From a virus, in the IMG/VR virus record IMGVR_UViG_3300045988_126214: a DNA stretch of 42,337 nt. The stretch is one strand, 5' to 3'. Below the pieces are notes generated by a model. It did not search any database. It worked only from the letters and a program-made list of their open reading frames with translations, and had not been told where the DNA came from. The position numbers were made by a program, and so were the translations under genes. Every line of letters begins with the position of its first letter. Within the stretch, counting starts at the first letter, position 1. Of the stretch, positions 31,169-42,248 are shown piece after piece.

Positions 31169-34100
31169 ATGCTTAAGATATATGATACGAACCACAATGC
31201 CATAGGGCATATTGTCAAATACAAGGATCTGAAGGTTGCGAGCGACGTTACAACTGGCGATCAGACTCTTTCTTTTACATACATGGCAAGACATCATGAA
31301 ATCTGTGAAGAGTATTATATTGAGACTCAGGATGCTGAGTATGTAGTAAAAGAAAAGAGTGTAAGCACAGATGGATTCCTCTCCTTTGTTGCGGTACTGA
31401 ACCTGGAAGAACTGGAGGCGAAGCCCTGGAGCTCCTTTGGCATTACGGATTCCACAATAGAAGATGCGGCCAAGCTTGCTCTGGCTGGATCCGGCTGGAC
31501 GGTTGGCGAATGTACCGTAACCAAGAAAAGAAATGCAGGGATATTGCAGACAAATACGCTTGGAGTAATTCAGAAGCTGTGTACTGCATTTATGTGTGAA
31601 GTCGTTTATGATACCAAGAAAAAGACAGTATCCTTTTACGATCAGGTTGGCCAGGATAAAGGGAACTTTTTCCTCACAGGGCTTAACCTGAAACGGTTAC
31701 AGAGGAAGGGCAGCACCTACGACTATTATACGAGAATTATCCCTATTGGCCAGGACGGGCTTACCATCGAGTCCGTGAACGATGGGAAGAATTACCTGGA
31801 AAATTACCAGTACACGAATAAGGTGAAGACCTACATCTGGAAAGACGAATCTTATACAGATGCTGCAGCCATGAAAGAGGATGCAGAAGCGAAGCTGAAA
31901 GATCTGTCAAAGCCGGAAGTATCATACAGTGCTGATATTATTGATCTGGCCAAACAAAGAGCTGGATACGATGATTTTTCTTTTTCCCTGGGAGATACAA
32001 TCACCCTGATCGATGCCGCCACCGGGATCCGGGAAAAGCAGCGGATCATCAAGCTTACACAATATCCACAGGACCATACCAAAGATGAGTGCGAACTGGC
32101 CAATAAGCTTCCCTCATTCGAAGAGGCCAGGGAGAAGCTCCAGGCCGCCCAGGAAATTATTAACACCGTAATCAGTGATGATGGACGGTACACGGGGACT
32201 ATCAATGTATCGGATATTTTGCATTTTGACGAGGGTGTATATGGCAGCAGTGCGGTGGGAAATCTGCAGGGGTTGTACAATACTCTGGACGGGAGCTTAT
32301 CAGAACTGAAACTGGCGGTAGGACAGATCGAGTCAAACTATATCAAGACAGAAGAGGCTGATATTAAGTTTGCCACCATTGAAAGTCTGAAAGCACTTGA
32401 GGCAGAAACTACCAGCATTAAGTCTAAATACGCGGAATTTGAGAGTACCGTTACGGATGAACTGGCGGCTAACAAAGCGTTAATCAATGAGCTGGATGTA
32501 AAAAAGATTAACGCCGCAGACGCTGATTTGAAATACGCAAGCATTGATTTCTCCAATATTGGCATAGCGGCTATGGAGAAATTCTATTCAGAATCTGGCT
32601 TGATTAAGAATGTAGTGGTCGGCGACCAGACTATTACTGGCGAATTGGTCGGTGTAACTATCAAAGGTGATCTGATCGAGGGTAACACCATCAAGGCAGA
32701 TAAGCTGGTCATTAAGGGGGAAGATGGCCTTTACTACAAGCTTAATACCAACGGATCAGGAGTAACTTCGGAGCAGACTGACTATAACAGTTTGAACGGT
32801 ACTGTTATCCAGGCCAAGAGTATCACAGCAGATAAAGTGGCGGTGACCGACTTGGTAGCTTTTGGTGCTGACATCGGTGGAAACCATATCGGACACGACT
32901 GCATATATTCCGGAGCTAAGACTTCTGCGCTCAATACCACCAGAGGATTCTATCTCGGCTCAGATGGCCAGGTAGGATTTGGCGATACGAATGAGTATAT
33001 TCAGTTCTATAAAGGCGATGACGGGAACTTTCACCTGAGAATTAGTGCTGGCGATATTTTGTTTGGTAAGAGTAAGAAGACTGTAGAGAGCGCAATTACT
33101 GAGATCGACACTAAGGTTAATAACGTTAAGTCCATTGTTGGAACCACATACACTTACCAGGTTGGTACTAGCATGACAGATGTTCCTACAGGGGAATGGC
33201 TAACTTCAATGCCTAACGTACCACAGGGACAGTATCTCTGGACAAAAGAGACCACCTTATATTCAGACGCAACCACCTCCGTAGGCTATATCGCTACCAG
33301 GATGGGTGTTGATGGTGCTGGTGGAGCTACCGGACCGGCTGGACCACAGGGACCCCAAGGTGAAAAAGGAGAGAAAGGTGATACTGGAGAGCAAGGACCC
33401 CAGGGTGATACCGGCGCAACAGGTCCACAGGGACCTCAAGGTAACCAAGGAATACAAGGTGTGAAAGGTGATACTGGTGCGACTGGACCACAAGGCCCCC
33501 AAGGTAACCAAGGAATACAAGGAGTAAAGGGTGATATGGGTGCCACTGGCCCAATCGGACCACAAGGACCCCAGGGTAACCAGGGGCCGACCGGACCTCA
33601 GGGACCAACTGGTGCCACGGGACCGACCGGTGCCACTGGTGCTATGGGGCCTCAAGGTCCTAAAGGCGATGGACTTGACGTCAAAGACACTAGAAGCACA
33701 AATCAAACGCCGCTTTGGTATATACAAAATTTCCCGATGACCACAGTAAATGAGTTGAAATTAGCAAATACGATTGGTCTAACTGGTGAAAACTTCTGTC
33801 TTTTAATAACATGCGTGCCATGGCGAGATGCTTCCGGCGGATATCCTAAGCAGACTGCAAAGATTGATGGTCGTGAATTATGGCGAATCGGTATTAGTGA
33901 TACGCAATGGAGTACATGGAATGACGCATACACCCTTGCAAATTCTGTTGATATGGGTATAGCCGCTTGGTGTTATAACAACGATCGTACTTATATTAAT
34001 GGCGGACGATTGTACGCTGGTTCGGTTACCGCTGTTCAAATGGCTGCTAATTCTATAACAACTGAAAAAATTGCGGCTGGTTCGGTTACCGCTGATAAAA

Positions 34101-35245
34101 TTGACGTTGTCAGTTTGTTTGCAAAAGACATCGAGGCATCCGGTTCTATATCTGGTGTTAAAATAGTTGCTAGAGAGATTACTGCAAATCAGTCATACTC
34201 TATATTTAACGGCACAAACAGTCAGAAAATCTTATATTTTGATGGATCGTCTATCAAATTAGGAAAAATGGGAACTGGAACATCTATACAAGGTGGCGCC
34301 GGATTCGAGTTTTTTGATAAGACGGTCACGATGTATGGTGATCTGAGTTTATACAGTGGCGATATTACCACTACTGGCAATGTGCAGGGAAAAACAATAA
34401 CTGCGACTGCAGACATGAATACTAATACCATATATGCATCTAATTGGTTTAGATCGCGCGGTACTACAGGATGGTATAGTGAGGATTATGGTGGTGGCTG
34501 GTATATGACGGATTCCGATTGGATTCGGGCATATAACGGAAAAGGTATAACCACCAATGGCAATATGTCCATTGGTGGATATATTCAGAGTAACAGCATA
34601 ATAAATACAACATATGAGTATCAGTCCAATAGAGGTTCGGTAGACTGGCGCTTTAGTGCGGCAACAGGTACAGGTGATGAAAATTTCTTTAGCTTTTATA
34701 AAGCTAACAATGGAATGATTCCACTGGCAATTGATGGAAATTTCGGAAACATTTACGTTGGGTTCAATGTGGGAGGTTCAGATTCGAAGACTGCTGTAGG
34801 AGTTTATCTTGGCGATCAAGTGGCTGGAGGTAGAGCTTTTATCTATCACGGAGATTCATACGCTGGGTCAATTTGGATTCAAACCAGACTTGATGGTTCA
34901 TGGAAATGGTTTAGTCTCGGAAGAGCATGTAGTGCAGCTCTTTCTGATATTCGACTAAAAGGCGATATAAGAGACGCCGAAGTACAAGACGCAACAAAAG
35001 TTATTGAAGCAATGCAAATTCATTCTTTTGAAAGAAAAGATTCTCATAAAAAATACAAGATTGGCTTTATAGCAGACGAACTCGAACAGCTTGACCCTAA
35101 CCTTGTCGATGGAGGCGGAGAAGTTGACGGACATCCATATTATAAATCTGTCAATAATTTGCAGTTGCTTGCGTATGTTGTAAAAGCAATGCAAGAGCTC
35201 AATCAAAGAGTGGATAAGCTAGAAAAAGAAAATGAAGAACTTTAA
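31169..35245 (+). CDS. Tail-associated lysin/fibre protein (Tal N-domain, collagen-like repeats, C-terminal S74 intramolecular chaperone)
   Basis: N-terminus [13 protein letters not shown]... of phage minor structural proteins. About 120 aa of G-X-Y triplets. C-terminal [10 protein letters not shown]...[12 protein letters not shown]...[12 protein letters not shown] is the S74 autoprocessing signature. Confidence 0.88.
33404..33529 (+). repeat. Two tandem 63-bp units that both encode [21 protein letters not shown]
   Basis: Codon-by-codon comparison gives 11 synonymous and 0 nonsynonymous differences. Confidence 0.85.
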
Positions 35246-37258: not shown

Positions 37259-37268
37259 GTAGCTAACA
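37259..37268 (+). repeat. Isolated GTAGCTAACA copy (candidate distal arm-type integrase site)
   Basis: Same 10-mer as the five-copy array at 37454-37509. Confidence 0.5.
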
Positions 37269-37365
37269 AAAATCGCGAAAACCCATTAAAATAAGGCACT
37301 ACAGTTTCCGTTGAGGAAGCTGCTAAGGCTGGTAAGTTCTAATTCCATAAAGTGTAAAAGCGTTG

Positions 37366-37402
37366 AAAATGCCGTAAACTCAAGAGTTTACGGCATTTTT
37401 TT
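37366..37402. terminator. Bidirectional terminator inside the attP region
   Basis: 14-bp perfect stem AAAATGCCGTAAAC / GTTTACGGCATTTT with loop TCAAGA. A and T runs on both sides. Confidence 0.75.
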
Positions 37403-37453
37403 AGTTTTCGGAAATTTGCTCAAAACAGTATGAAAACACATGAAAAAATGACG

Positions 37454-37509
37454 GTAGCTAACAAGTAGCTAACAAGTAGCTAACAGACGTAGCTAACACG
37501 TAGCTAACA
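37454..37509 (+). repeat. Five direct copies of GTAGCTAACA (spacing 11, 11, 13, 11 nt); candidate arm-type integrase binding sites of attP
   Basis: Copies start at 37454, 37465, 37476, 37489 and 37500, directly downstream of the int stop. Confidence 0.65.
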
Positions 37510-37550: not shown

Positions 37551-38615
37551 TCATTTTGTTATCTTTTCCATTTCTCTTTTCAAATCTTCCACAGTACGGT
37601 GGGTATAAACTTTTTCTGTGATATCAGCGATTTCATGCCCAACGATCATTTTCAAAATGTATTCATTCATATCCACATCTTTGGCTTTTGTAATAAAAGT
37701 ATGTCGGGTGTCATGAGGTTTGTGATCCATTCCAAGCCTGGACATGACTTTTTTGAAGCGTCCGCGATATTTATCATATGTAAGGTGAGTGCCTTGTTGG
37801 CCGTCTGGATCATTGAAAAGATAATCGCTTCCCATATTAACTGCATTTTCGTAATTTTTACGAACTAGATCAGCAACCAGTGGATGAATTGGAACTAGAC
37901 GGTTACGGCCAGCATCGGTTTTCAGTCCGCCAGTATATGTCATGTTATCCAGATCCACATCTGCAATTTTCAGAACTGCCAGCTCCTGAGGACGCCAGCC
38001 GGAATAAATCCCGATCAGGATCATATCTGCAAATGGTATTTCAGGATGCTCTATAAGAGCTGTAATTTCCTGATCAGAGAAAGGAATGCGGACGATCTTC
38101 GGACGTTCTCGTTTCACACCATCGCATAAAGCAGCATAGTTTTTATCCACAAGATCATGTTTCATAGCCCATTTGTACATGAGATTAAAGAGGCTCTTCA
38201 TTCGTCCTTTGGTGCTGGATCCAACATCAGCATCCTTGATAGCTCCCTCCAGATGCTCGACTCGGATATCTTTCATTCGCATATCATAAAGGGAAGAACA
38301 GTACTTGTAGGACGCAGTGATTGTTCGGATACTGGAGGGATTACCCAGAGTTGGAAAATACTTGTCCGACCATTTTTCGTATACTTCAGAAAAAGTTATT
38401 TTATTAGAATCCAGATCGTAAGGATTTTCATTGTATTGTACCAGGGCGGTCATAGCTTCCTGCCGGGTAGCAAAATATCCGATTACTTGCCTCTTCTGTT
38501 TGATTCGTTGTCCCTCCTCATCAAATTGCCATCCGAAGGTTTTTGCAGCTACCCATGGCCGCCGTCGTTTGCCAGATAGTTTATATATAGATCCGAATCC
38601 ATTTGGAAGTTTCAT
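37551..38615 (-). CDS. int: Tyrosine recombinase / phage integrase
   Basis: SAM-like N-domain, then catalytic GWRPQEL (R), HDTRHTF (HxxR), and VGHEIADITEKVYTH (H...Y). Confidence 0.93.
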   Translation of the reverse strand: MKLPNGFGSIYKLSGKRRRPWVAAKTFGWQFDEEGQRIKQKRQVIGYFATRQEAMTALVQYNENPYDLDSNKITFSEVYEKWSDKYFPTLGNPSSIRTITASYKYCSSLYDMRMKDIRVEHLEGAIKDADVGSSTKGRMKSLFNLMYKWAMKHDLVDKNYAALCDGVKRERPKIVRIPFSDQEITALIEHPEIPFADMILIGIYSGWRPQELAVLKIADVDLDNMTYTGGLKTDAGRNRLVPIHPLVADLVRKNYENAVNMGSDYLFNDPDGQQGTHLTYDKYRGRFKKVMSRLGMDHKPHDTRHTFITKAKDVDMNEYILKMIVGHEIADITEKVYTHRTVEDLKREMEKITK

Positions 38616-38644
38616 AACATCACCTTTCTTCTAAAAAAGAGTAT

Positions 38645-38668
38645 AAAAAATACACCTTTGCAGGTGTA
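38645..38668 (-). terminator. Leader terminator (attenuator) between the int promoter region and the int RBS
   Basis: Minus strand: TACACCT-GCAA-AGGTGTA followed by U6. It lies ~30 nt upstream of the int ATG. Confidence 0.55.
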
Positions 38669-38685
38669 AAGAAAAGTGCTATAAT
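38658..38685 (+). promoter_or_regulatory. Plus-strand promoter TTGCAG-16-TATAAT facing the int leader (candidate countertranscript promoter)
   Basis: Hexamers at 38658-38663 and 38680-38685. The -10 lies inside the left arm of the 22-bp inverted repeat. Confidence 0.45.
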
Positions 38686-38724
38686 AATCTTGCTATGGAA
38701 TGATTATAGCAGTTTTCTTTACAC
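38664..38724. repeat. 22-bp inverted repeat (21/22 complementary) with a 17-nt spacer in the int leader
   Basis: GTGTAAAGAAAAGTGCTATAAT (38664-38685) and ATTATAGCAGTTTTCTTTACAC (38703-38724). Confidence 0.85.
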
Positions 38725-38745
38725 TGCAAATTATTCAACAGATCG

Positions 38746-38776
38746 CTCTGGTGCTGGTAACACTGGGGCGATTTTT
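38746..38776 (+). terminator. Element E1: plus-strand terminator-like hairpin (9-bp stem with three G-U pairs, then a U-run)
   Basis: GCTCTGGTG-CTGGTAA-CACTGGGGC followed by GATTTTTATTT. 26/31 identical to E2 at 39015-39045. Confidence 0.45.
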
Positions 38777-38778
38777 AT

Positions 38779-38976
38779 TTAGTTCATTTCAAGTTCTTTC
38801 ATCAGCTCTTCCTGAGAAACAAATTCGTGACACTCAGGATTCTTACGGATTTCATCTAATAACATTAGATCGACTTCATCAGGCTCTATTTCCTCGATTT
38901 TATTATGCCAGTACTCAGGAGCATAAACATGATTATTCAACAGAAGTTTGCTTTCACGTAATGAGGCCTGGAGCAT
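38779..38976 (-). CDS. 65-aa strongly acidic hypothetical protein
   Basis: Track ORF trimmed to ATG 38976 (MLQASLRESK...). Lies between the MazF-like gene and int. Confidence 0.6.
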   Translation of the reverse strand: MLQASLRESKLLLNNHVYAPEYWHNKIEEIEPDEVDLMLLDEIRKNPECHEFVSQEELMKELEMN

Positions 38977-39014
38977 GATAATCACATCCTTTCAAAAAAT
39001 GTGCCACTCTGGCG

Positions 39015-39045
39015 CAGGTAACACTGAGGCGGTTTTGTTTATAAC
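39015..39045. repeat. Element E2: degenerate copy (26/31) of E1
   Basis: CTCTGGCGCAGGTAACACTGAGGCGGTTTTG versus CTCTGGTGCTGGTAACACTGGGGCGATTTTT. Confidence 0.7.
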
Positions 39046-39055
39046 GTAAAAGACC

Positions 39056-39081
39056 CCGTATTTCTACGAGGTCTTCACAAT
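39056..39081 (-). terminator. Minus-strand terminator (GACCTCGTA-GAAA-TACGGGGTC followed by U4)
   Basis: 9-bp stem with one G-U pair and a GAAA tetraloop. The C-A mismatch on the plus strand shows it is oriented for the minus strand. Confidence 0.55.
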
Positions 39082-39123
39082 AATAACTTCAATCTTCTAT
39101 TAATGCCCTGTAGGCGCAATTAT

Positions 39124-39141
39124 ACAAAACAATTGTTTTGT
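39124..39141. promoter_or_regulatory. 18-bp perfect palindrome ACAAAACAATTGTTTTGT at the +1 of the 39148-39177 promoter
   Basis: Exact self-complementarity, placed directly downstream of the -10. Confidence 0.6.
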
Positions 39142-39147
39142 GAAGTT

Positions 39148-39177
39148 ATTATAATTCAGTATATGCCTCATAGTCAA
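39148..39177 (-). promoter_or_regulatory. Minus-strand promoter TTGACT-18-TATAAT immediately after the MazF-like stop codon
   Basis: -35 at 39177-39172 and -10 at 39153-39148. Confidence 0.55.
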
Positions 39178-39180
39178 GAC

Positions 39181-39954
39181 TTATTCATCAAAAATATAAA
39201 ATTCTTTTATTTTTTTATTAATGCGAGACATTGTGTTCGCTGAAAGACGGATACCGGATAAGAAATCAGCCGCCTTTTTGGGAGTATAAATACGCATTTT
39301 GCTAATTGCAGTGATTTGCTCAATTTTCGCAATACTTCCTGTTTTCATATTTTCAATTTCAAATTTATCTCTTTCTAGCAAAAAGATTGTCTTTTCAAGC
39401 TCTCCTATTTGCTCTGTGAGATTATTCAAAGCATTTGTTACTTCTGCCGTTTGTTGAGACTCTGGTATTTTTGCAAAAACCTCATAGAGTGAACGAAATT
39501 CGCTTAATTTGGTTTTTACATCGATCAGTTGTCGGCCAAATCTAGTAGATACAAGGCTATAAAATTCAGTACCAAGTGACAAATCACGCTCATGAACTTC
39601 CTTATTTGGCTTAATGGAAGATAAAGGGACAACCATGAGAGTATTAGCATTATGAGGATTTTTTTTATCCAATACAACAGCATAGTGCAAGCCCCCTAAT
39701 TCGGCACCCACGCGAAAACCAAAATTAACACGAATAATATCGCCACGTGTATACGCCAATAGTTTTGATGGATTAAATTTTTCCTCAAAACGGATGAACT
39801 CGGCATAGCTCTGCAGCCAATAAGAAATTAAATCAGCTTTCTTCAAATGTTTATTAGAGGAATCATTGATTAACGCTTCAAGTATGTTGTTCATGGATCT
39901 TATGGCCTTCTTTTTGTTTTGGATAACATCCTCTTTGGTTATAGGACGAGACAA
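39181..39954 (-). CDS. 257-aa MazF/PemK-fold protein with an N-terminal extension and a ~95-aa coiled-coil insertion; orphan, with no adjacent antitoxin
   Basis: GDIIRVNFGFRVGAELGGLHYAVVL, TLMVVPLSS and GSIAKIEQITAISKMRI align by eye with the MazF blocks GDLIWVDFDPTKGSEQAGHRPAVVLS, MCLCVPCTT and GVALADQVKSIAWRAR. TTG start 7 nt after AAGGAGG. Confidence 0.7.
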   Translation of the reverse strand: MSRPITKEDVIQNKKKAIRSMNNILEALINDSSNKHLKKADLISYWLQSYAEFIRFEEKFNPSKLLAYTRGDIIRVNFGFRVGAELGGLHYAVVLDKKNPHNANTLMVVPLSSIKPNKEVHERDLSLGTEFYSLVSTRFGRQLIDVKTKLSEFRSLYEVFAKIPESQQTAEVTNALNNLTEQIGELEKTIFLLERDKFEIENMKTGSIAKIEQITAISKMRIYTPKKAADFLSGIRLSANTMSRINKKIKEFYIFDE

Positions 39955-40270: not shown

Positions 40271-40285
40271 GGGTGGCTCTTTTCT
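40259..40285 (+). terminator. Hairpin plus T-rich tract between the convergent 41-aa ORF and the repressor gene
   Basis: GCC(G)ACC-ATTGAG-GGTGGC followed by TCTTTTCTT. Confidence 0.4.
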
Positions 40286-40662
40286 TATTCTATGCCCAGG
40301 CAAGCTTTCATAAATTCTTCAATATGTTTTAGCTTTTCCGGATCAGCTTCTGCGATAGCATTTAACATATTTCTCGCCATCTGGTTCTCGGTCCTACTAA
40401 GTTTTCCAAGATTAATAGAGAATCGATCTTCTTCATTCACTTTCGTGAACATGTTATCGTCTCCGCCTTCACCGGTTCGAAGCCAAATTTCATTTACTTC
40501 AAATTCACGACAAATAGATTTTATATTAGCCTCAGTTAAACTATTACGACCAGTTTCGATAGCACTCATAGTGTTCTTTTTCAAACCTATTTTTTCACCG
40601 AATTTTTCAAGCGTAAGTTGACGGGTTTTCCGAACTTTTTTTACGCGTTCGCCTTGCGTCAT
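40285..40662 (-). CDS. cI-like XRE-family HTH repressor (125 aa, no S24 peptidase domain)
   Basis: LTLEKFGEKIGLKKNTMSAIETGRNSLTEANIKSICREF HTH. AAGGAGGA RBS before ATG 40662. Divergent from the cro-like gene. Confidence 0.85.
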   Translation of the reverse strand: MTQGERVKKVRKTRQLTLEKFGEKIGLKKNTMSAIETGRNSLTEANIKSICREFEVNEIWLRTGEGGDDNMFTKVNEEDRFSINLGKLSRTENQMARNMLNAIAEADPEKLKHIEEFMKACLGIE

Positions 40663-40689
40663 TACTAAATCCTCCTTTCTTATGAATCC

Positions 40690-40718
40690 AATATAGCACC
40701 CTGGGATTGCAAAGTCAA
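40690..40718 (-). promoter_or_regulatory. Repressor promoter TTGACT-17-TATATT
   Basis: -35 at 40718-40713 and -10 at 40695-40690. Confidence 0.6.
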
Positions 40719-40746
40719 CAAAAAAGTTCATTAAATAGACAAATAA
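40718..40746. repeat. Left copy of the 29-bp target-site duplication
   Basis: Identical to 55-83. Confidence 0.8.
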
Positions 40747-40823: not shown

Positions 40824-42248
40824 ATGGAGGTAACGATTATCAGAAAGGTAGAATTATCAATGGATGAACAAAAGAAGTATGAGGTGATCAAATCATTGGC
40901 AGATCATCCAGCCCCTAACAAGCAGAGAGCTGCCCTTACTCTCGGTTGTACTGTACGTCACATTAACCGTATGCTTAAAGGCTACAAAGAGCATGGCAAA
41001 GCCTATTTTATCCATGGCAACAGAGGACGTAAGCCAGCCAATACCATCCCCAATGAAACTCGTAATCTTGTTGTCGATTTATACCGCAACAAATACTATG
41101 ATGCCAATTTTGTGCATTTCACTGAGTTATTAGGAAAACATGAAGATATCCACATCTCCCCTTCAGCGGTTATGTCTATTCTCGAAGCTGAATACATTCT
41201 CTCTCCCAAGGCTACAAAAGCTAAGAAAAAGAGAATCAAAGAACAATTAAAAGCCGATAAAAAAGCAGCGAAATCTCAGAAAGAAGCGGATCAGATACAG
41301 ATTAATCTTGTTGCTCTTGAGGACGCCCATTCCCGCCGTCCCAGAGCCGCTTATTTCGGTGAACTGCAGCAAATGGACGCAACTCCCTACGAATGGATCC
41401 CCGGTCAGATATGGCATCTGCATCTGGCTATAGATGATGCTACAGGAAGGATTACCGGCGGTTGGTTTGATACCCAGGAAACTCTGAATGGCTATTACCA
41501 CGTTTTCCATCAGATCCTCACAACTTACGGTATCCCCTACAAGTTCTTTACAGACCGCCGTACTGTTTTCACCTATAAAAAGAAAAACTCCCCATCTATC
41601 GATGAGGATACCTATACACAGTTTGCCTATGCCTGTAAACAGCTGGGGGTTGAACTGGGATCAAGCAGTGTGCCTCAGGCAAAAGGACGTGTAGAACGCC
41701 TGAACCAGACGCTACAGTCGCGCCTGCCAGTCGAGTTAAGACTTGCAGGCATAACGACCATAGACGCTGCCAATGAATTCCTAAACTCCTACATAAAGGA
41801 ATTCAATGAGAAGTTTTCCCTTCCCATTCATGGTATCAAGTCTGTGTTCGAAGTGCAACCCCAAATTGAAAAAATTAACCTGATTCTTGCAGTTTTATGC
41901 GAAAGAACGGTAGATACCGGACACTGTTTAAGGCATTCCAATAAATACTACCGTATGATTGACAGCAGAGGCAATCAGGTCCACTACCGAAAAGGAACAA
42001 AGGTAATGTTTATTCAGGCTTTTGATGGCAGTCAATACTGCTGTGTAAATGACAAAGACATCTACGCACTGGAAGAAATACCCGAGCACGAAACAAAATC
42101 AAAAGACTTAGATATAGACTATACTCCGCCAAAACCAAAGAAGCCCCGCATTCCACCAATGAATCATCCCTGGCGTCGCCAACAGTTTGGAAAGTTTGTC
42201 AAACAGCAAGAACACCACCAGAATGATCAAGATACAAAAATTGCCTGA
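40824..42248 (+). CDS. DDE (rve/integrase-core) transposase with an N-terminal HTH, ISNCY-like
   Basis: N-terminal HTH (ALTLGCTVRHINRMLKGY). Catalytic QMDATP (D), FFTDRRTVF (D), AKGRVERLNQTLQ (E). Alternative start at ATG 40860. Confidence 0.88.
   Translation: MEVTIIRKVELSMDEQKKYEVIKSLADHPAPNKQRAALTLGCTVRHINRMLKGYKEHGKAYFIHGNRGRKPANTIPNETRNLVVDLYRNKYYDANFVHFTELLGKHEDIHISPSAVMSILEAEYILSPKATKAKKKRIKEQLKADKKAAKSQKEADQIQINLVALEDAHSRRPRAAYFGELQQMDATPYEWIPGQIWHLHLAIDDATGRITGGWFDTQETLNGYYHVFHQILTTYGIPYKFFTDRRTVFTYKKKNSPSIDEDTYTQFAYACKQLGVELGSSSVPQAKGRVERLNQTLQSRLPVELRLAGITTIDAANEFLNSYIKEFNEKFSLPIHGIKSVFEVQPQIEKINLILAVLCERTVDTGHCLRHSNKYYRMIDSRGNQVHYRKGTKVMFIQAFDGSQYCCVNDKDIYALEEIPEHETKSKDLDIDYTPPKPKKPRIPPMNHPWRRQQFGKFVKQQEHHQNDQDTKIA

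What the first reader, a model, noticed from the sequence alone, without database searches (positions are those of the whole stretch)
38616..38776. int leader carries mutually exclusive terminator and antiterminator structures, with a facing promoter that could make a countertranscript
Read on the int (minus) strand, the region contains a 22-nt arm (38724-38703), a 17-nt loop and the complementary arm (38685-38664), with 21/22 pairs. The last 5 nt of that arm (TACAC) are also the first 5 nt of a 7-bp GCAA-tetraloop hairpin (38668-38651). That hairpin is followed by U6 and then the int RBS and ATG. The long hairpin therefore precludes the terminator. On the plus strand, TTGCAG-16-TATAAT (38658-38685) points into this leader. 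Its transcript would end at the E1 hairpin/U-run (38746-38776), giving a ~85-nt RNA complementary to the upstream arm. Pairing of that RNA with read-through int mRNA would free the downstream arm and allow the terminator to form. This is the same logic as countertranscript-driven attenuation of rep in pT181/pIP501-type plasmids, applied here to a phage integrase. The right arm also contains TATAAT with a poorly spaced -35 (15 nt), so a face-to-face promoter pair is an alternative reading.
Basis: inference. Interest (0 to 1): 0.65.

Follow-up and report, generated by a model that had tools for sequence, protein, structure and literature searches.

The report
Antisense-RNA switch upstream of phage integrase
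The stretch before this gut-phage integrase gene carries a conserved small antisense RNA gene facing a foldable leader, probably an RNA switch that keeps integrase off; the same cassette precedes unrelated integrases in hundreds of phage contigs.

Summary

Comparison with about 250 related loci shows a conserved cassette. On the strand opposite int, every leader type has an extended -10 promoter and, 63-89 nt on, a G.U-rich terminator with compensatory changes. This is a real antisense sRNA gene of about 85 nt.

The sense-strand hairpin plus U-run (T) is also a covarying, strand-specific RNA hairpin. The two arms stay complementary in 11 sequence-diverged leader types (p about 5e-5).

In the window and four other types, masking the sRNA target raises predicted terminator formation from 0-0.25 to above 0.9. 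Arm 2 also pairs with the int Shine-Dalgarno region.

In the largest related group the terminator does not overlap the arm, so only the translational lock is predicted there. The mirrored sense promoter is not conserved.

The cassette precedes both tyrosine and large serine integrases. No expression data exist. It is functionally analogous to pT181, pIP501 and pSK41 control but not homologous: a new variant of a known kind.

The parts
37551..38615 (-). int, a tyrosine integrase of 354 aa; the regulated gene
   Evidence: ORF list. Pfam Phage_integrase, E = 1.3e-14.
38621..38628 (-). Shine-Dalgarno region GAAAGGTG of int
   Evidence: Sequence. It pairs with arm 2 when arm 1 is absent.
38645..38650 (-). 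U6 tract after hairpin T. On the plus strand it is an A-tract just upstream of the antisense -35.
38651..38668 (-). T: 7-bp hairpin with a GCAA loop; sense-strand intrinsic terminator/attenuator
   Evidence: Terminator scan. dG -8.8 kcal/mol; P(T) goes from 0.00 to 0.95 on masking arm 1. Homologous hairpins covary and are specific to the sense strand.
38657..38685 (-). Arm 2 (extended). It is the 3' arm of the long hairpin, an anti-SD sequence, and holds the 5' half of T.
38657..38685 (+). P_anti: -35 TTTGCA (38657-38662), TG (38677-38678), -10 TATAAT (38680-38685); predicted TSS about 38692
   Evidence: An equivalent promoter with a 17-nt spacer is present in 18 of 18 representatives of other leader types, 17 of them with the TG extension.
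38686..38702 (.). Loop of the long hairpin; holds both predicted transcription start sites
38703..38731 (-). Arm 1 (extended): antiterminator / anti-anti-SD, and target of the sRNA. It also carries a mirrored promoter, TTTGCA-16-TGcTATAAT (38730-38703).
   Evidence: The sense promoter is not conserved in relatives.
38692..38780 (+). Predicted antisense sRNA of about 85-89 nt: a 5' stem-loop with a U/C-rich loop, then a terminator stem-loop
   Evidence: Fold -28.8 kcal/mol, z = -4.4. The same two-hairpin layout appears in most of the 14 leader representatives folded, though L094 was cut short and L099/L012 fold less cleanly.
38740..38779 (+). E1: intrinsic terminator of the sRNA (stem 38740-38774 plus T-run); overlaps the stop codon of the upstream ORF
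   Evidence: dG is -14.9 on the plus strand against -8.4 on the minus strand. Covariation: 6 of 8 pairs, with U.G at two pairs in 14-15 of 20 sequences.
38779..38985 (-). 68-aa ORF upstream on the int strand; read-through from here would carry arm 1 into the int leader
   Evidence: It has only a sub-threshold RelB-antitoxin resemblance. In relatives this position holds unrelated genes on the same strand.
39007..39040 (+). E2: second copy of the E hairpin with a T-run; possibly a back-up terminator for plus-strand transcripts, or a relic of recombination
   Evidence: 87% direct repeat of E1. It occupies the position that the single E hairpin has in phage phiRg519T2.
39048..39177 (-). Upstream sense promoter TTGACT-18-TATAAT (39177-39148) and hairpin plus UUUU (39078-39048); candidate origin of the sense transcripts
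   Evidence: Homologous to the region upstream of int in Ruminococcus phage phiRg519T2, where the promoter matches 12 of 12.

Best explanation
The int upstream region is a two-strand riboregulatory cassette.

A strong, probably constitutive promoter on the strand opposite int (38657-38685) makes an sRNA of about 85 nt that ends at terminator E1.

Sense transcripts that enter from the upstream lysogeny-side genes carry arm 1. Arm 1 pairs with arm 2 as soon as arm 2 is made. That pairing blocks both hairpin T (so RNA polymerase reads on) and the pairing of arm 2 with the Shine-Dalgarno region (so int is translated).

When the sRNA has paired with arm 1, or when a transcript lacks arm 1, arm 2 is free. 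T then forms in front of U6 and terminates the transcript. Any read-through RNA has its SD and AUG sequestered by arm 2.

Int output therefore falls as the sRNA accumulates, for example once lysogeny is established.

Shown by sequence and comparison: the elements themselves, their conservation, their covariation and the predicted energetics. Inferred: that the RNAs are made, that they pair, and the effect on int.
For: - The elements are present and non-random.
- Antisense promoter and terminator: 18 of 18 representatives of 11 leader types have the promoter (17 with the TG extension), and 17 of 18 have a terminator called downstream, giving an sRNA of 63-89 nt (one call, L174 at 51 nt, is a spurious early hit). 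The terminator is more stable on the antisense strand. It has 91% paired cells against 70% in shuffles (0 of 500), 6 of 8 pairs with compensatory changes, and U.G pairs fixed.
- The sRNA folds into the same stem-loop plus terminator layout in most of the 14 leader representatives folded. In the large F-like group the stem-loop covaries (0 of 500 shuffles) and keeps a UNCG tetraloop on the antisense strand.
- T is a sense-strand RNA hairpin. The sense fold averages -11.7 against -8.4 kcal/mol for the antisense fold, with 87 against 21 G.U pairs across 61 distinct sequences, and it covaries. Sense transcription therefore crosses the leader.
- Arm 1 to arm 2 complementarity is kept although the sequences differ. 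Matched pairs average -22.2 and mismatched pairs -11.6 kcal/mol (permutation p about 5e-5).
- Arm 2 to SD: matched -12.6 against mismatched -10.0 (p = 3.5e-4). SD accessibility falls on masking in 84 of 95 F-like leaders.
- Predicted switch of T: 0.00-0.25 to 0.92-0.98 in types A-E.
- The type-A leader is 97-98% identical between phages whose int coding sequence is 84% identical (third codon positions 66%). Conservation starts exactly at E1, next to at least six different upstream contexts.
- The cassette sits in front of tyrosine integrases only 23-35% identical to this one, and in front of large serine integrases.
- The neighbouring upstream gene is on the int strand in all gene-called loci.
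Against: - No transcript, 5'/3' end or reporter data exist for any member.
- In types F, J and K, and in the roughly 100 F-like cassettes, T does not overlap arm 2 and is predicted to form anyway. How int is transcribed past T there is unexplained.
- Types G, H and I lack an obvious T.
- One E-type variant (L174) is predicted to form T even with arm 1 free.
- Mismatches in the inverted repeat show no sense-strand wobble bias (10 G.U against 11 A.C). RNA-level selection on the long hairpin is therefore not demonstrated separately from DNA-level symmetry.
- The SD-accessibility changes are modest, and absent in one tyrosine-integrase subgroup (0.52 to 0.48).
- The sequences compared are related to each other, so the p-values are optimistic.
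Confidence: 0.5

Rival explanations
1. The terminators are simple insulators, and the sRNA acts by interference or degradation rather than by refolding. T is the constitutive terminator of the upstream operon. E1 ends a convergent antisense transcript. P_anti lowers read-through into int by polymerase collision or occlusion, or the sRNA-mRNA duplex is cut by RNase III. The inverted repeat would then be incidental to how int is controlled.
For: - In the F-like majority, T forms independently of arm 1, as a plain terminator would.
- P_anti sits directly on T and arm 2, so a polymerase bound there faces incoming sense polymerases.
- Convergent-transcription effects are documented for pIP501 (PMC5703833).
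- In S. pyogenes, RNase III or RNase Y alters several of the newly found sRNAs, some of them next to prophage int genes: RNase III affects Spy_sRNA1222613, beside int2, and RNase Y affects it and the pair beside int4 (PMC4829319).
Against: - It does not explain why arm 1 tracks arm 2 through 11 sequence types.
- It does not explain why arm 2 matches the SD region.
- It does not explain why T's 5' half lies inside arm 2 in types A-E, giving a clean predicted switch.
Confidence: 0.22
2. The element is a face-to-face promoter switch at the DNA level. The repeat exists because two near-identical promoters (38730-38703 on the minus strand and 38657-38685 on the plus strand) face each other, with start sites about 5 bp apart. 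RNA polymerase can occupy only one at a time, and this competition sets int expression against antisense expression.
For: - Both promoters score 10 of 12 with a TG extension in this window.
- Their predicted start sites overlap (sequence).
- There is no wobble bias in the repeat.
Against: - The sense promoter is good in only about 5 of 18 representatives. In types C, E2, E3, F, J and K the mirrored -10 is degenerate although the arms still pair.
- Transcripts from the arm-1 promoter would lack arm 1 and are predicted to terminate at T, so this promoter cannot be the productive int promoter.
Confidence: 0.12
3. The inverted repeat is a protein-binding palindrome, an operator for a phage regulator or for Int itself, that controls P_anti or int.
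For: It is a symmetric DNA sequence overlapping a -10 element, and it shows no strand bias in mismatches.
Against: - The arms are 14-29 bp with spacers that vary from 11 to 23 nt, unlike operators.
- The arm sequence occurs nowhere else in the phage, including the repressor-proximal intergenic region.
- The putative Int arm-site repeat GTAGCTAACA is absent from the leader.
- The same architecture serves unrelated integrase families.
- The arm-1 hairpin keeps a UNCG loop, which is an RNA feature.
Confidence: 0.08
4. The repeat is the phage attachment site (attP) or another recombination site.
For: attP sites of serine integrases are imperfect inverted repeats close to int (general knowledge, not tested here).
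Against: - In an integrated copy inside a 143-kb bacterial contig (L100), the complete repeat remains between the upstream phage gene and int, while host-like genes lie beyond the 3' end of int.
- In the window, the likely attP is downstream of int, at the GTAGCTAACA repeats 37259-37509.
Confidence: 0.01

Closest known systems
pT181 RNAI / repC countertranscript-driven attenuator (Novick 1989, as reviewed in PMC5703833)
   Same: - An antisense RNA of about 87 nt is transcribed from within the leader.
- It is complementary to the 5' part of the leader.
- A pre-emptor helix competes with a terminator-like stem-loop just before the start codon, and that stem-loop also involves the ribosome site.
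- Antisense binding favours the terminator.
   Different: - The regulated gene is a phage integrase, not a replication initiator.
- There is no sequence homology.
- Here the antisense promoter lies inside the 3' arm of the antiterminator, so the arm, the promoter spacer and the anti-SD are the same nucleotides.
- Nothing has been tested experimentally.
pIP501 RNAIII / repR (and pAMbeta1) attenuation
   Same: The layout matches: a long leader, an antisense promoter midway along it, an inverted repeat plus poly-T just 5' of the translation start, and convergent sense and antisense promoters. In phiRg519T2 a consensus sense promoter lies about 290 nt upstream of int with no ORF in between.
   Different: No CopR-like repressor has been identified for the sense promoter. 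The regulated gene is different. Membership by descent is not supported.
pSK41 RNAI / rep (antisense-induced sequestration of the ribosome site)
   Same: The antisense target lies about 70-110 nt upstream of the start codon. Binding is proposed to refold the leader so that the ribosome site is paired. The two-stem-loop antisense RNA is about 83 nt. This is the best analogue for the F, J and K-like cassettes.
   Different: In the window a terminator is part of the refolded state as well. The gene and host range differ.
Small RNAs found next to prophage int genes in Streptococcus pyogenes SF370, e.g. Spy_sRNA779816 (89 nt, between int3 and SPy_0938; PMC4829319)
   Same: These are experimentally detected sRNAs of about 90 nt, with their own promoter and terminator, in the intergenic region flanking a Firmicutes prophage integrase. 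One prophage has a pair on opposite strands between int and the repressor gene.
   Different: Their function is unknown. I could not check their orientation relative to int, or any sequence or structure relationship. They are not described as a family or as int regulators.
Other phage RNA controls: lambda sib retroregulation and OOP, P22 sar, P1 c4, P4 CI RNA (from my own knowledge, not tested here)
   Same: All are phage-encoded RNA elements that control lysogeny-related genes. P4 CI RNA causes premature termination by pairing with nascent transcripts.
   Different: sib lies downstream of int and works through RNase III. The others target cII, ant or immunity transcripts, not the 5' leader of int.

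Membership tests
Countertranscript-driven transcriptional attenuators (pT181 / pIP501 type) | An antisense RNA gene inside the leader, with its own promoter and terminator, giving a product of about 80-140 nt | tested here: met
   Promoter 38657-38685 and terminator 38740-38779. Both are conserved, and the terminator covaries. This is sequence-level evidence only; expression has not been shown.
Countertranscript-driven transcriptional attenuators (pT181 / pIP501 type) | The antisense RNA is complementary to the upstream (pre-emptor side) leader segment but not to the terminator | tested here: met
   The predicted sRNA (38692-38780) covers arm 1 (38703-38731) and excludes arm 2 and T.
Countertranscript-driven transcriptional attenuators (pT181 / pIP501 type) | Mutually exclusive pre-emptor helix and terminator hairpin | tested here: met
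   In the window, T shares its 5' half with arm 2, and P(T) goes from 0.00 to 0.95 on masking. The same holds in types B-E. It does not hold in types F, J and K, where T is separate.
Countertranscript-driven transcriptional attenuators (pT181 / pIP501 type) | A hairpin plus U-tract immediately 5' of the ribosome site and start codon | tested here: met
   Hairpin 38668-38651, U6 at 38650-38645, SD at 38628-38621, ATG at 38615. The hairpin is specific to the sense strand and covaries in relatives.
Countertranscript-driven transcriptional attenuators (pT181 / pIP501 type) | A sense promoter upstream of the antisense target, so that the mRNA contains the target | tested here: inconclusive
   There are candidates only: promoter 39177-39148 (11 of 12 matches; homologous to a 12-of-12 promoter in phiRg519T2), and read-through from the upstream ORF. 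A hairpin plus UUUU (39078-39048) lies in between.
Countertranscript-driven transcriptional attenuators (pT181 / pIP501 type) | Antisense RNA binding causes premature termination, and the regulated gene is a plasmid replication initiator | not testable with these tools
   This needs in vitro or in vivo transcription assays. The gene here is an integrase, so the element is at most a functional analogue and not a member by descent.
Antisense-induced ribosome-site sequestration (pSK41 RNAI type) | With the upstream target blocked, the leader refolds so that the SD and AUG are paired | tested here: inconclusive
   - Window: the MFE without arm 1 pairs CACUUUUCUU with AAGAAAGGUG and also covers the AUG. 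SD unpaired probability goes from 0.28 to 0.11.
- Across types: matched against mismatched pairs, p = 3.5e-4.
- F-like leaders: 84 of 95 decrease, but the effect is small in one subgroup.
Face-to-face promoter switches (e.g. coliphage 186 pR/pL) | Two functional convergent promoters, both conserved | tested here: not met
   Both promoters are present in the window, but the sense one is degenerate in most related leader types.
Any curated RNA family (Rfam 15) | A covariance-model match at the leader | tested here: not met
   There is no meaningful match at 38616-38780 up to E = 1; the only overlap is a chance-level miRNA-precursor hit (mir-458, 38651-38736, 20.6 bits against a gathering score of 59, E = 0.91). 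There is no match at the leaders of 7 other loci at gathering score, only skipping-rope RNA elsewhere in two of them.

The most novel reading that the evidence does not exclude
The cassette is a mobile, self-contained riboregulatory module: an antisense sRNA gene plus a switchable leader with an anti-SD sequence and, in many versions, an attenuator. It has been exchanged among gut Firmicutes phages and placed in front of integrases of two unrelated enzyme families. There it acts as the general post-transcriptional off-switch for int in lysogens, with sRNA dosage as a read-out of lysogenic state or copy number, much as plasmids count copies.
Probability: 0.35. Interest if true: 0.8.

Novelty: new variant of a known kind. 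Interest (0 to 1): 0.68.

Why it matters
How temperate phages of Gram-positive bacteria keep integrase low in lysogens while its mRNA is present is an open question. A 2025 preprint on S. aureus phiNM1 and 80alpha invokes 'an unknown post-transcriptional mechanism' (10.1101/2025.10.23.684294).

This cassette offers a concrete, testable candidate. Three features make it worth testing:
- It is found in hundreds of gut-phage contigs.
- It precedes both tyrosine and serine integrases.
- It is present in a cultured phage, phiRg519T2 of Ruminococcus gnavus ATCC 29149.

If it works as proposed, it would extend countertranscript attenuation from plasmid copy control to lysogeny control. It would define a new abundant class of phage sRNA. 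It would also explain why the non-coding leader is far better conserved (97-98%) than the integrase gene behind it (84%).

Tried and rejected
- Known RNA families: nothing meaningful at the leader; the only Rfam overlap is a chance-level miRNA hit, mir-458, E 0.91.
- Close DNA relatives among deposited phages: none. Relatives came from viral, genome and metagenome contigs instead.
- attP reading: rejected, because the repeat is intact in an integrated prophage.
- Operator reading: the arm sequence and the putative Int arm-site motif were not found elsewhere or in the leader.
- Direct trans pairing of the sRNA with the SD: matched pairs are no better than mismatched pairs (p = 0.25).
- Wobble-bias test for the long hairpin: no bias (10 against 11), so it is uninformative or mildly negative.
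- An int promoter of its own in the conserved block TTTTTTATACTC (with TATACT as a -10): there is no usable -35, and the block reads GTACCC in some type-F leaders, losing the invariant T.
- A possible extended -10, TGTTATTTT, over the U-run of F-like terminators: considered, but the strong sense-strand G.U bias of the hairpin argues for an RNA hairpin.
- Literature searches for a described antisense or attenuator control of phage int: nothing found. One search failed on syntax.
- Function of the 68-aa upstream ORF: no Pfam or PHROG hit, only a sub-threshold RelB-like match.
Full report
**What is in the window**

The window is a temperate siphovirus-like phage genome. Late genes, a collagen-repeat tail fibre and an amidase lie on the plus strand. 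A lysogeny module follows on the minus strand: an XRE repressor (40285-40731), a MazF/PemK-like protein (39181-39954), a 68-aa ORF (38779-38985) and a tyrosine integrase (37551-38615).

The finding concerns the 160 nt between the 68-aa ORF and int.
- The 21/22 inverted repeat is present. As RNA it extends to about 29 bp (-36.1 kcal/mol, z = -5.0).
- The 7-bp GCAA hairpin plus U6 lies directly before the SD and ATG.
- The plus-strand promoter is TTTGCA-17-TGcTATAAT.
- The plus-strand terminator is at 38740-38774.
- The arm sequence is unique to these two positions in the phage.

**Relatives**

Nothing close exists among deposited phages. Integrase-anchored searches of viral, genome and metagenome contigs, plus look-ups of eight integrase clusters at 71-82% identity, gave many loci.

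Integrases 80-100% identical to this one carry a leader that is essentially invariant from the E1 hairpin to the ATG. The DNA upstream of E1 differs in at least six unrelated ways. Against phages whose int coding sequence is 84% identical (third codon positions 66%), the 165-nt leader is 97-98% identical.

More distant integrases (60-78%) carry leaders of quite different sequence. I grouped these as types B to I.

**The antisense gene is the most conserved feature**

I examined 18 representatives of 11 leader types.
- On the strand opposite int, all 18 have a promoter with a 17-nt spacer. In 17 of 18 it has a TG-extended -10.
- The -10 lies 53-90 nt upstream of the int ATG.
- In 17 of the 18, a hairpin plus T-run is called downstream, giving an sRNA of 63-89 nt (the L174 call, 51 nt, is a spurious early hit). 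It directly abuts the stop codon of the upstream gene.
- The hairpin is 3-9 kcal/mol more stable on the antisense strand in all types but one.

Twenty distinct terminator hairpins were aligned.
- Six of 8 pairs show compensatory changes.
- 91% of cells are paired, against 70% in shuffles (0 of 500 shuffles reach this).
- Slid controls fall to 37-62%.
- Two pairs are U.G in 14-15 of 20 sequences, which would be A.C on the int strand.

The predicted RNA has the same layout in most of the representatives folded: a 5' stem-loop and then the terminator. I take the sRNA gene as real, at roughly 0.8, although no expression data are available.

**The sense strand is also read as RNA**

The hairpin plus U-run (T) occurs in 8 of 11 types. 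Across 61 distinct sequences of the largest group:
- the fold averages -11.7 kcal/mol on the int strand against -8.4 on the other strand;
- there are 87 G.U pairs on the int strand against 21 on the other;
- 9 of 12 pairs show changes on both sides, and several pairs are mostly U.G or G.U.

T lies upstream of the antisense start site. This selection can therefore only act on transcripts running towards int. Sense transcription from upstream must cross the leader. In all loci with gene calls, the neighbouring upstream gene is on the int strand.

**The switch**

Arm 1 and arm 2 remain complementary in every type although their sequences differ. Matched duplexes average -22.2 kcal/mol and mismatched ones -11.6 (permutation p about 5e-5).

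I modelled the nascent transcript up to the U-run and compared it with and without the sRNA-complementary part masked.

| Leader types | P(T), arm 1 free | P(T), sRNA target masked |
|---|---|---|
| A-E (one exception, L174) | 0.00-0.25 | 0.92-0.98 |
| F, J, K | 0.45-0.88 | 0.92-0.94 |

- In types F, J and K, T does not overlap arm 2 and forms either way.
- Types G, H and I have no clear T.

Without arm 1, arm 2 pairs with the SD and the AUG (CACUUUUCUU with AAGAAAGGUG; z = -3.4).
- Arm 2 to SD complementarity is better within a type than between types (-12.6 against -10.0, p = 3.5e-4).
- In the F-like group the SD-to-start spacer often reads GGAGATGAT(A), the complement of arm 2 (TATCATCTTC).
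- Predicted SD accessibility falls on masking in 84 of 95 F-like leaders. For serine integrases it goes from 0.41 to 0.20. One tyrosine-integrase subgroup shows almost no change.
- Direct pairing of the sRNA with the SD is not supported (p = 0.25).

**Breadth**

A 26-nt degenerate pattern from the block between T and the SD found 93 viral contigs.
- In 87 the next ORF starts with the int N-terminus MKLPNGFG, though four of these ORFs are short or broken.
- In five it is a 567-aa large serine recombinase (Resolvase, Recombinase and Zn-ribbon domains) behind the same architecture.

Of the 118 I analysed:
- 49 precede tyrosine integrases only 23-35% identical to this one;
- 39 precede serine recombinases;
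- 17 precede other ORFs, many with integrase-like N-termini;
- 13 had no ORF that I could call.

In this group arm 1 is itself a covarying hairpin (0 of 500 shuffles). Its loop is CUUCGG or CUCCGG on the antisense strand, a UNCG tetraloop, which points to a structured sRNA.

The cultured R. gnavus phage phiRg519T2 carries a complete cassette. It also has a 12-of-12 consensus sense promoter about 290 nt upstream of int, with no ORF in between. That promoter and a following hairpin are homologous to window 39185-39040. The window's second E-type hairpin (E2, 39007-39036) sits where phiRg519T2 has its only one. This suggests the 68-aa ORF was inserted into an older leader.

**Evidence against the model, and alternatives**

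- Mismatches in the long repeat show no G.U excess over A.C (10 against 11). RNA-level selection on the long hairpin is supported by co-variation of whole arms, not by wobble asymmetry.
- The mirrored sense promoter in arm 1 scores well here but is degenerate in most types. Its transcripts would lack arm 1 and should terminate at T. A pure face-to-face promoter switch is therefore unlikely to be the conserved function, although promoter occlusion may add to control in this phage.
- The repeat is intact in an integrated prophage, so it is not attP. The likely attP lies downstream of int, at the GTAGCTAACA repeats.
- An operator reading fits poorly with the 14-29 bp arms, the variable 11-23 nt spacers and the use of the cassette by unrelated integrases.
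- The main live rival is that T and E are plain insulators, and the sRNA acts by transcriptional interference or RNase-mediated decay.

**Comparison with known systems**

The logic matches three plasmid systems as described in PMC5703833.
- pT181 RNAI/repC: an 87-nt countertranscript, with a pre-emptor competing against a terminator stem-loop that also holds the ribosome site.
- pIP501 RNAIII/repR: a long leader, an antisense promoter midway, and an inverted repeat plus poly-T before the start.
- pSK41 RNAI, for the F-like forms: antisense-induced sequestration of the ribosome site.

There is no homology with any of these and the target gene differs, so this is an analogue, not a member. Rfam has nothing meaningful at the leader; the only overlap is a chance-level miRNA-precursor hit.

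I found no paper describing antisense or attenuator control of a phage int leader. Two papers do bear on it.
- sRNAs of about 90 nt next to prophage int genes have been detected in S. pyogenes, without an assigned function (PMC4829319).
- A recent preprint notes an unexplained post-transcriptional repression of int in staphylococcal lysogens.

**Verdict**

The countertranscript and both terminators are well supported by comparative evidence. The attenuator logic is well predicted for this window and four other leader types.
- The broader family suggests a more general principle: an sRNA-controlled choice between arm 1:arm 2 pairing and arm 2:SD pairing, with termination added in some versions.
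- All functional steps remain inferred.

Noticed in passing
window 37259-37509 (also the terminator at 37365-37400): GTAGCTAACA occurs six times on the plus strand in the 500-nt gap between the amidase gene and the 3' end of int. Five copies are in near-tandem at 37454-37509. Seven matches were found where 1.7 are expected. These are probably Int arm-type sites of attP. A 16-bp perfect hairpin terminator ends the late operon here.
   Followed up: partly
window 39007-39040 (+), with a promoter-like site at 38953-38982 (+): There is a second copy (87%) of the E terminator hairpin just upstream of the 68-aa ORF's ribosome site. It could end an antisense RNA of about 50 nt covering that ribosome site, or act as a back-up terminator for read-through of the int-leader sRNA. 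A 13-nt exact repeat, ATTATTCAACAGA (38730 and 38932), accompanies the two copies.
   Followed up: partly
window 39048-39177 (-); L317 1150-1275: A strong promoter (TTGACT-18-TATAAT) lies right after the MazF-like gene. It is followed by an 18-bp perfect palindrome, ACAAAACAATTGTTTTGT (39139-39122). A 12-nt inverted repeat shows compensatory differences in phiRg519T2. A hairpin plus UUUU follows at 39078-39048. This could be a second small transcription unit or a first attenuator of a long int leader. It is conserved in R. gnavus phage phiRg519T2 and in L216, L222 and L306.
   Followed up: partly
L112, L118, L128, L167, L198 and 39 loci among L199-L316: The same leader and antisense cassette precedes large serine recombinases (567 aa; Resolvase, Recombinase and Zn-ribbon domains) as well as several distant tyrosine-integrase families. 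The regulatory module has therefore been exchanged independently of the enzyme.
   Followed up: yes
L083 (metagenome contig OFMO01013815.1): This is a natural recombinant. A type-E leader is joined to the window's own SD and int (100% identity over residues 1-201). The junction is inside the conserved block TTTTTTATACTCTTTTTTAG, which suggests this block serves as a crossover point for module exchange.
   Followed up: no
L013-L031, L054-L082: Integrases 60-65% identical carry an N-terminal zinc-ribbon extension (MALLKCPECxHDVSDKAxxCPHCGYP) in place of the leader. In many of these loci, upstream of it lies a short remnant that looks like a duplicated int 5' end (MKLPNGFGSVYRKEV, then a stop).
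   Followed up: no
window 40824-42248 (+): A 474-aa transposase-like ORF (PHROG transposase families; HTH_29) sits directly after the repressor's divergent promoter region, where early lytic genes are expected. It may be an insertion sequence interrupting the early operon.
   Followed up: no
window 39181-39954 (-): A 257-aa protein has an N-terminal PemK/MazF-like domain (Pfam, 1.2e-10). It also gives a full-length match to PHROG 1412, which is labelled 'antitoxin mazE-like'. The adjacent 68-aa ORF has only a sub-threshold RelB-antitoxin resemblance. Toxin-antitoxin-like genes also sit upstream of int in L093 (a ParE toxin).
   Followed up: partly
L009 1181-1258; L104 590-658: Rfam skipping-rope RNA (RF02924) matches above the gathering score, about 1.8-1.9 kb upstream of int in two related prophages.
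   Followed up: no
window 31169-35245 (+): A 1358-aa tail-fibre-like protein contains a long collagen-like Gly-X-Y repeat region.
   Followed up: no
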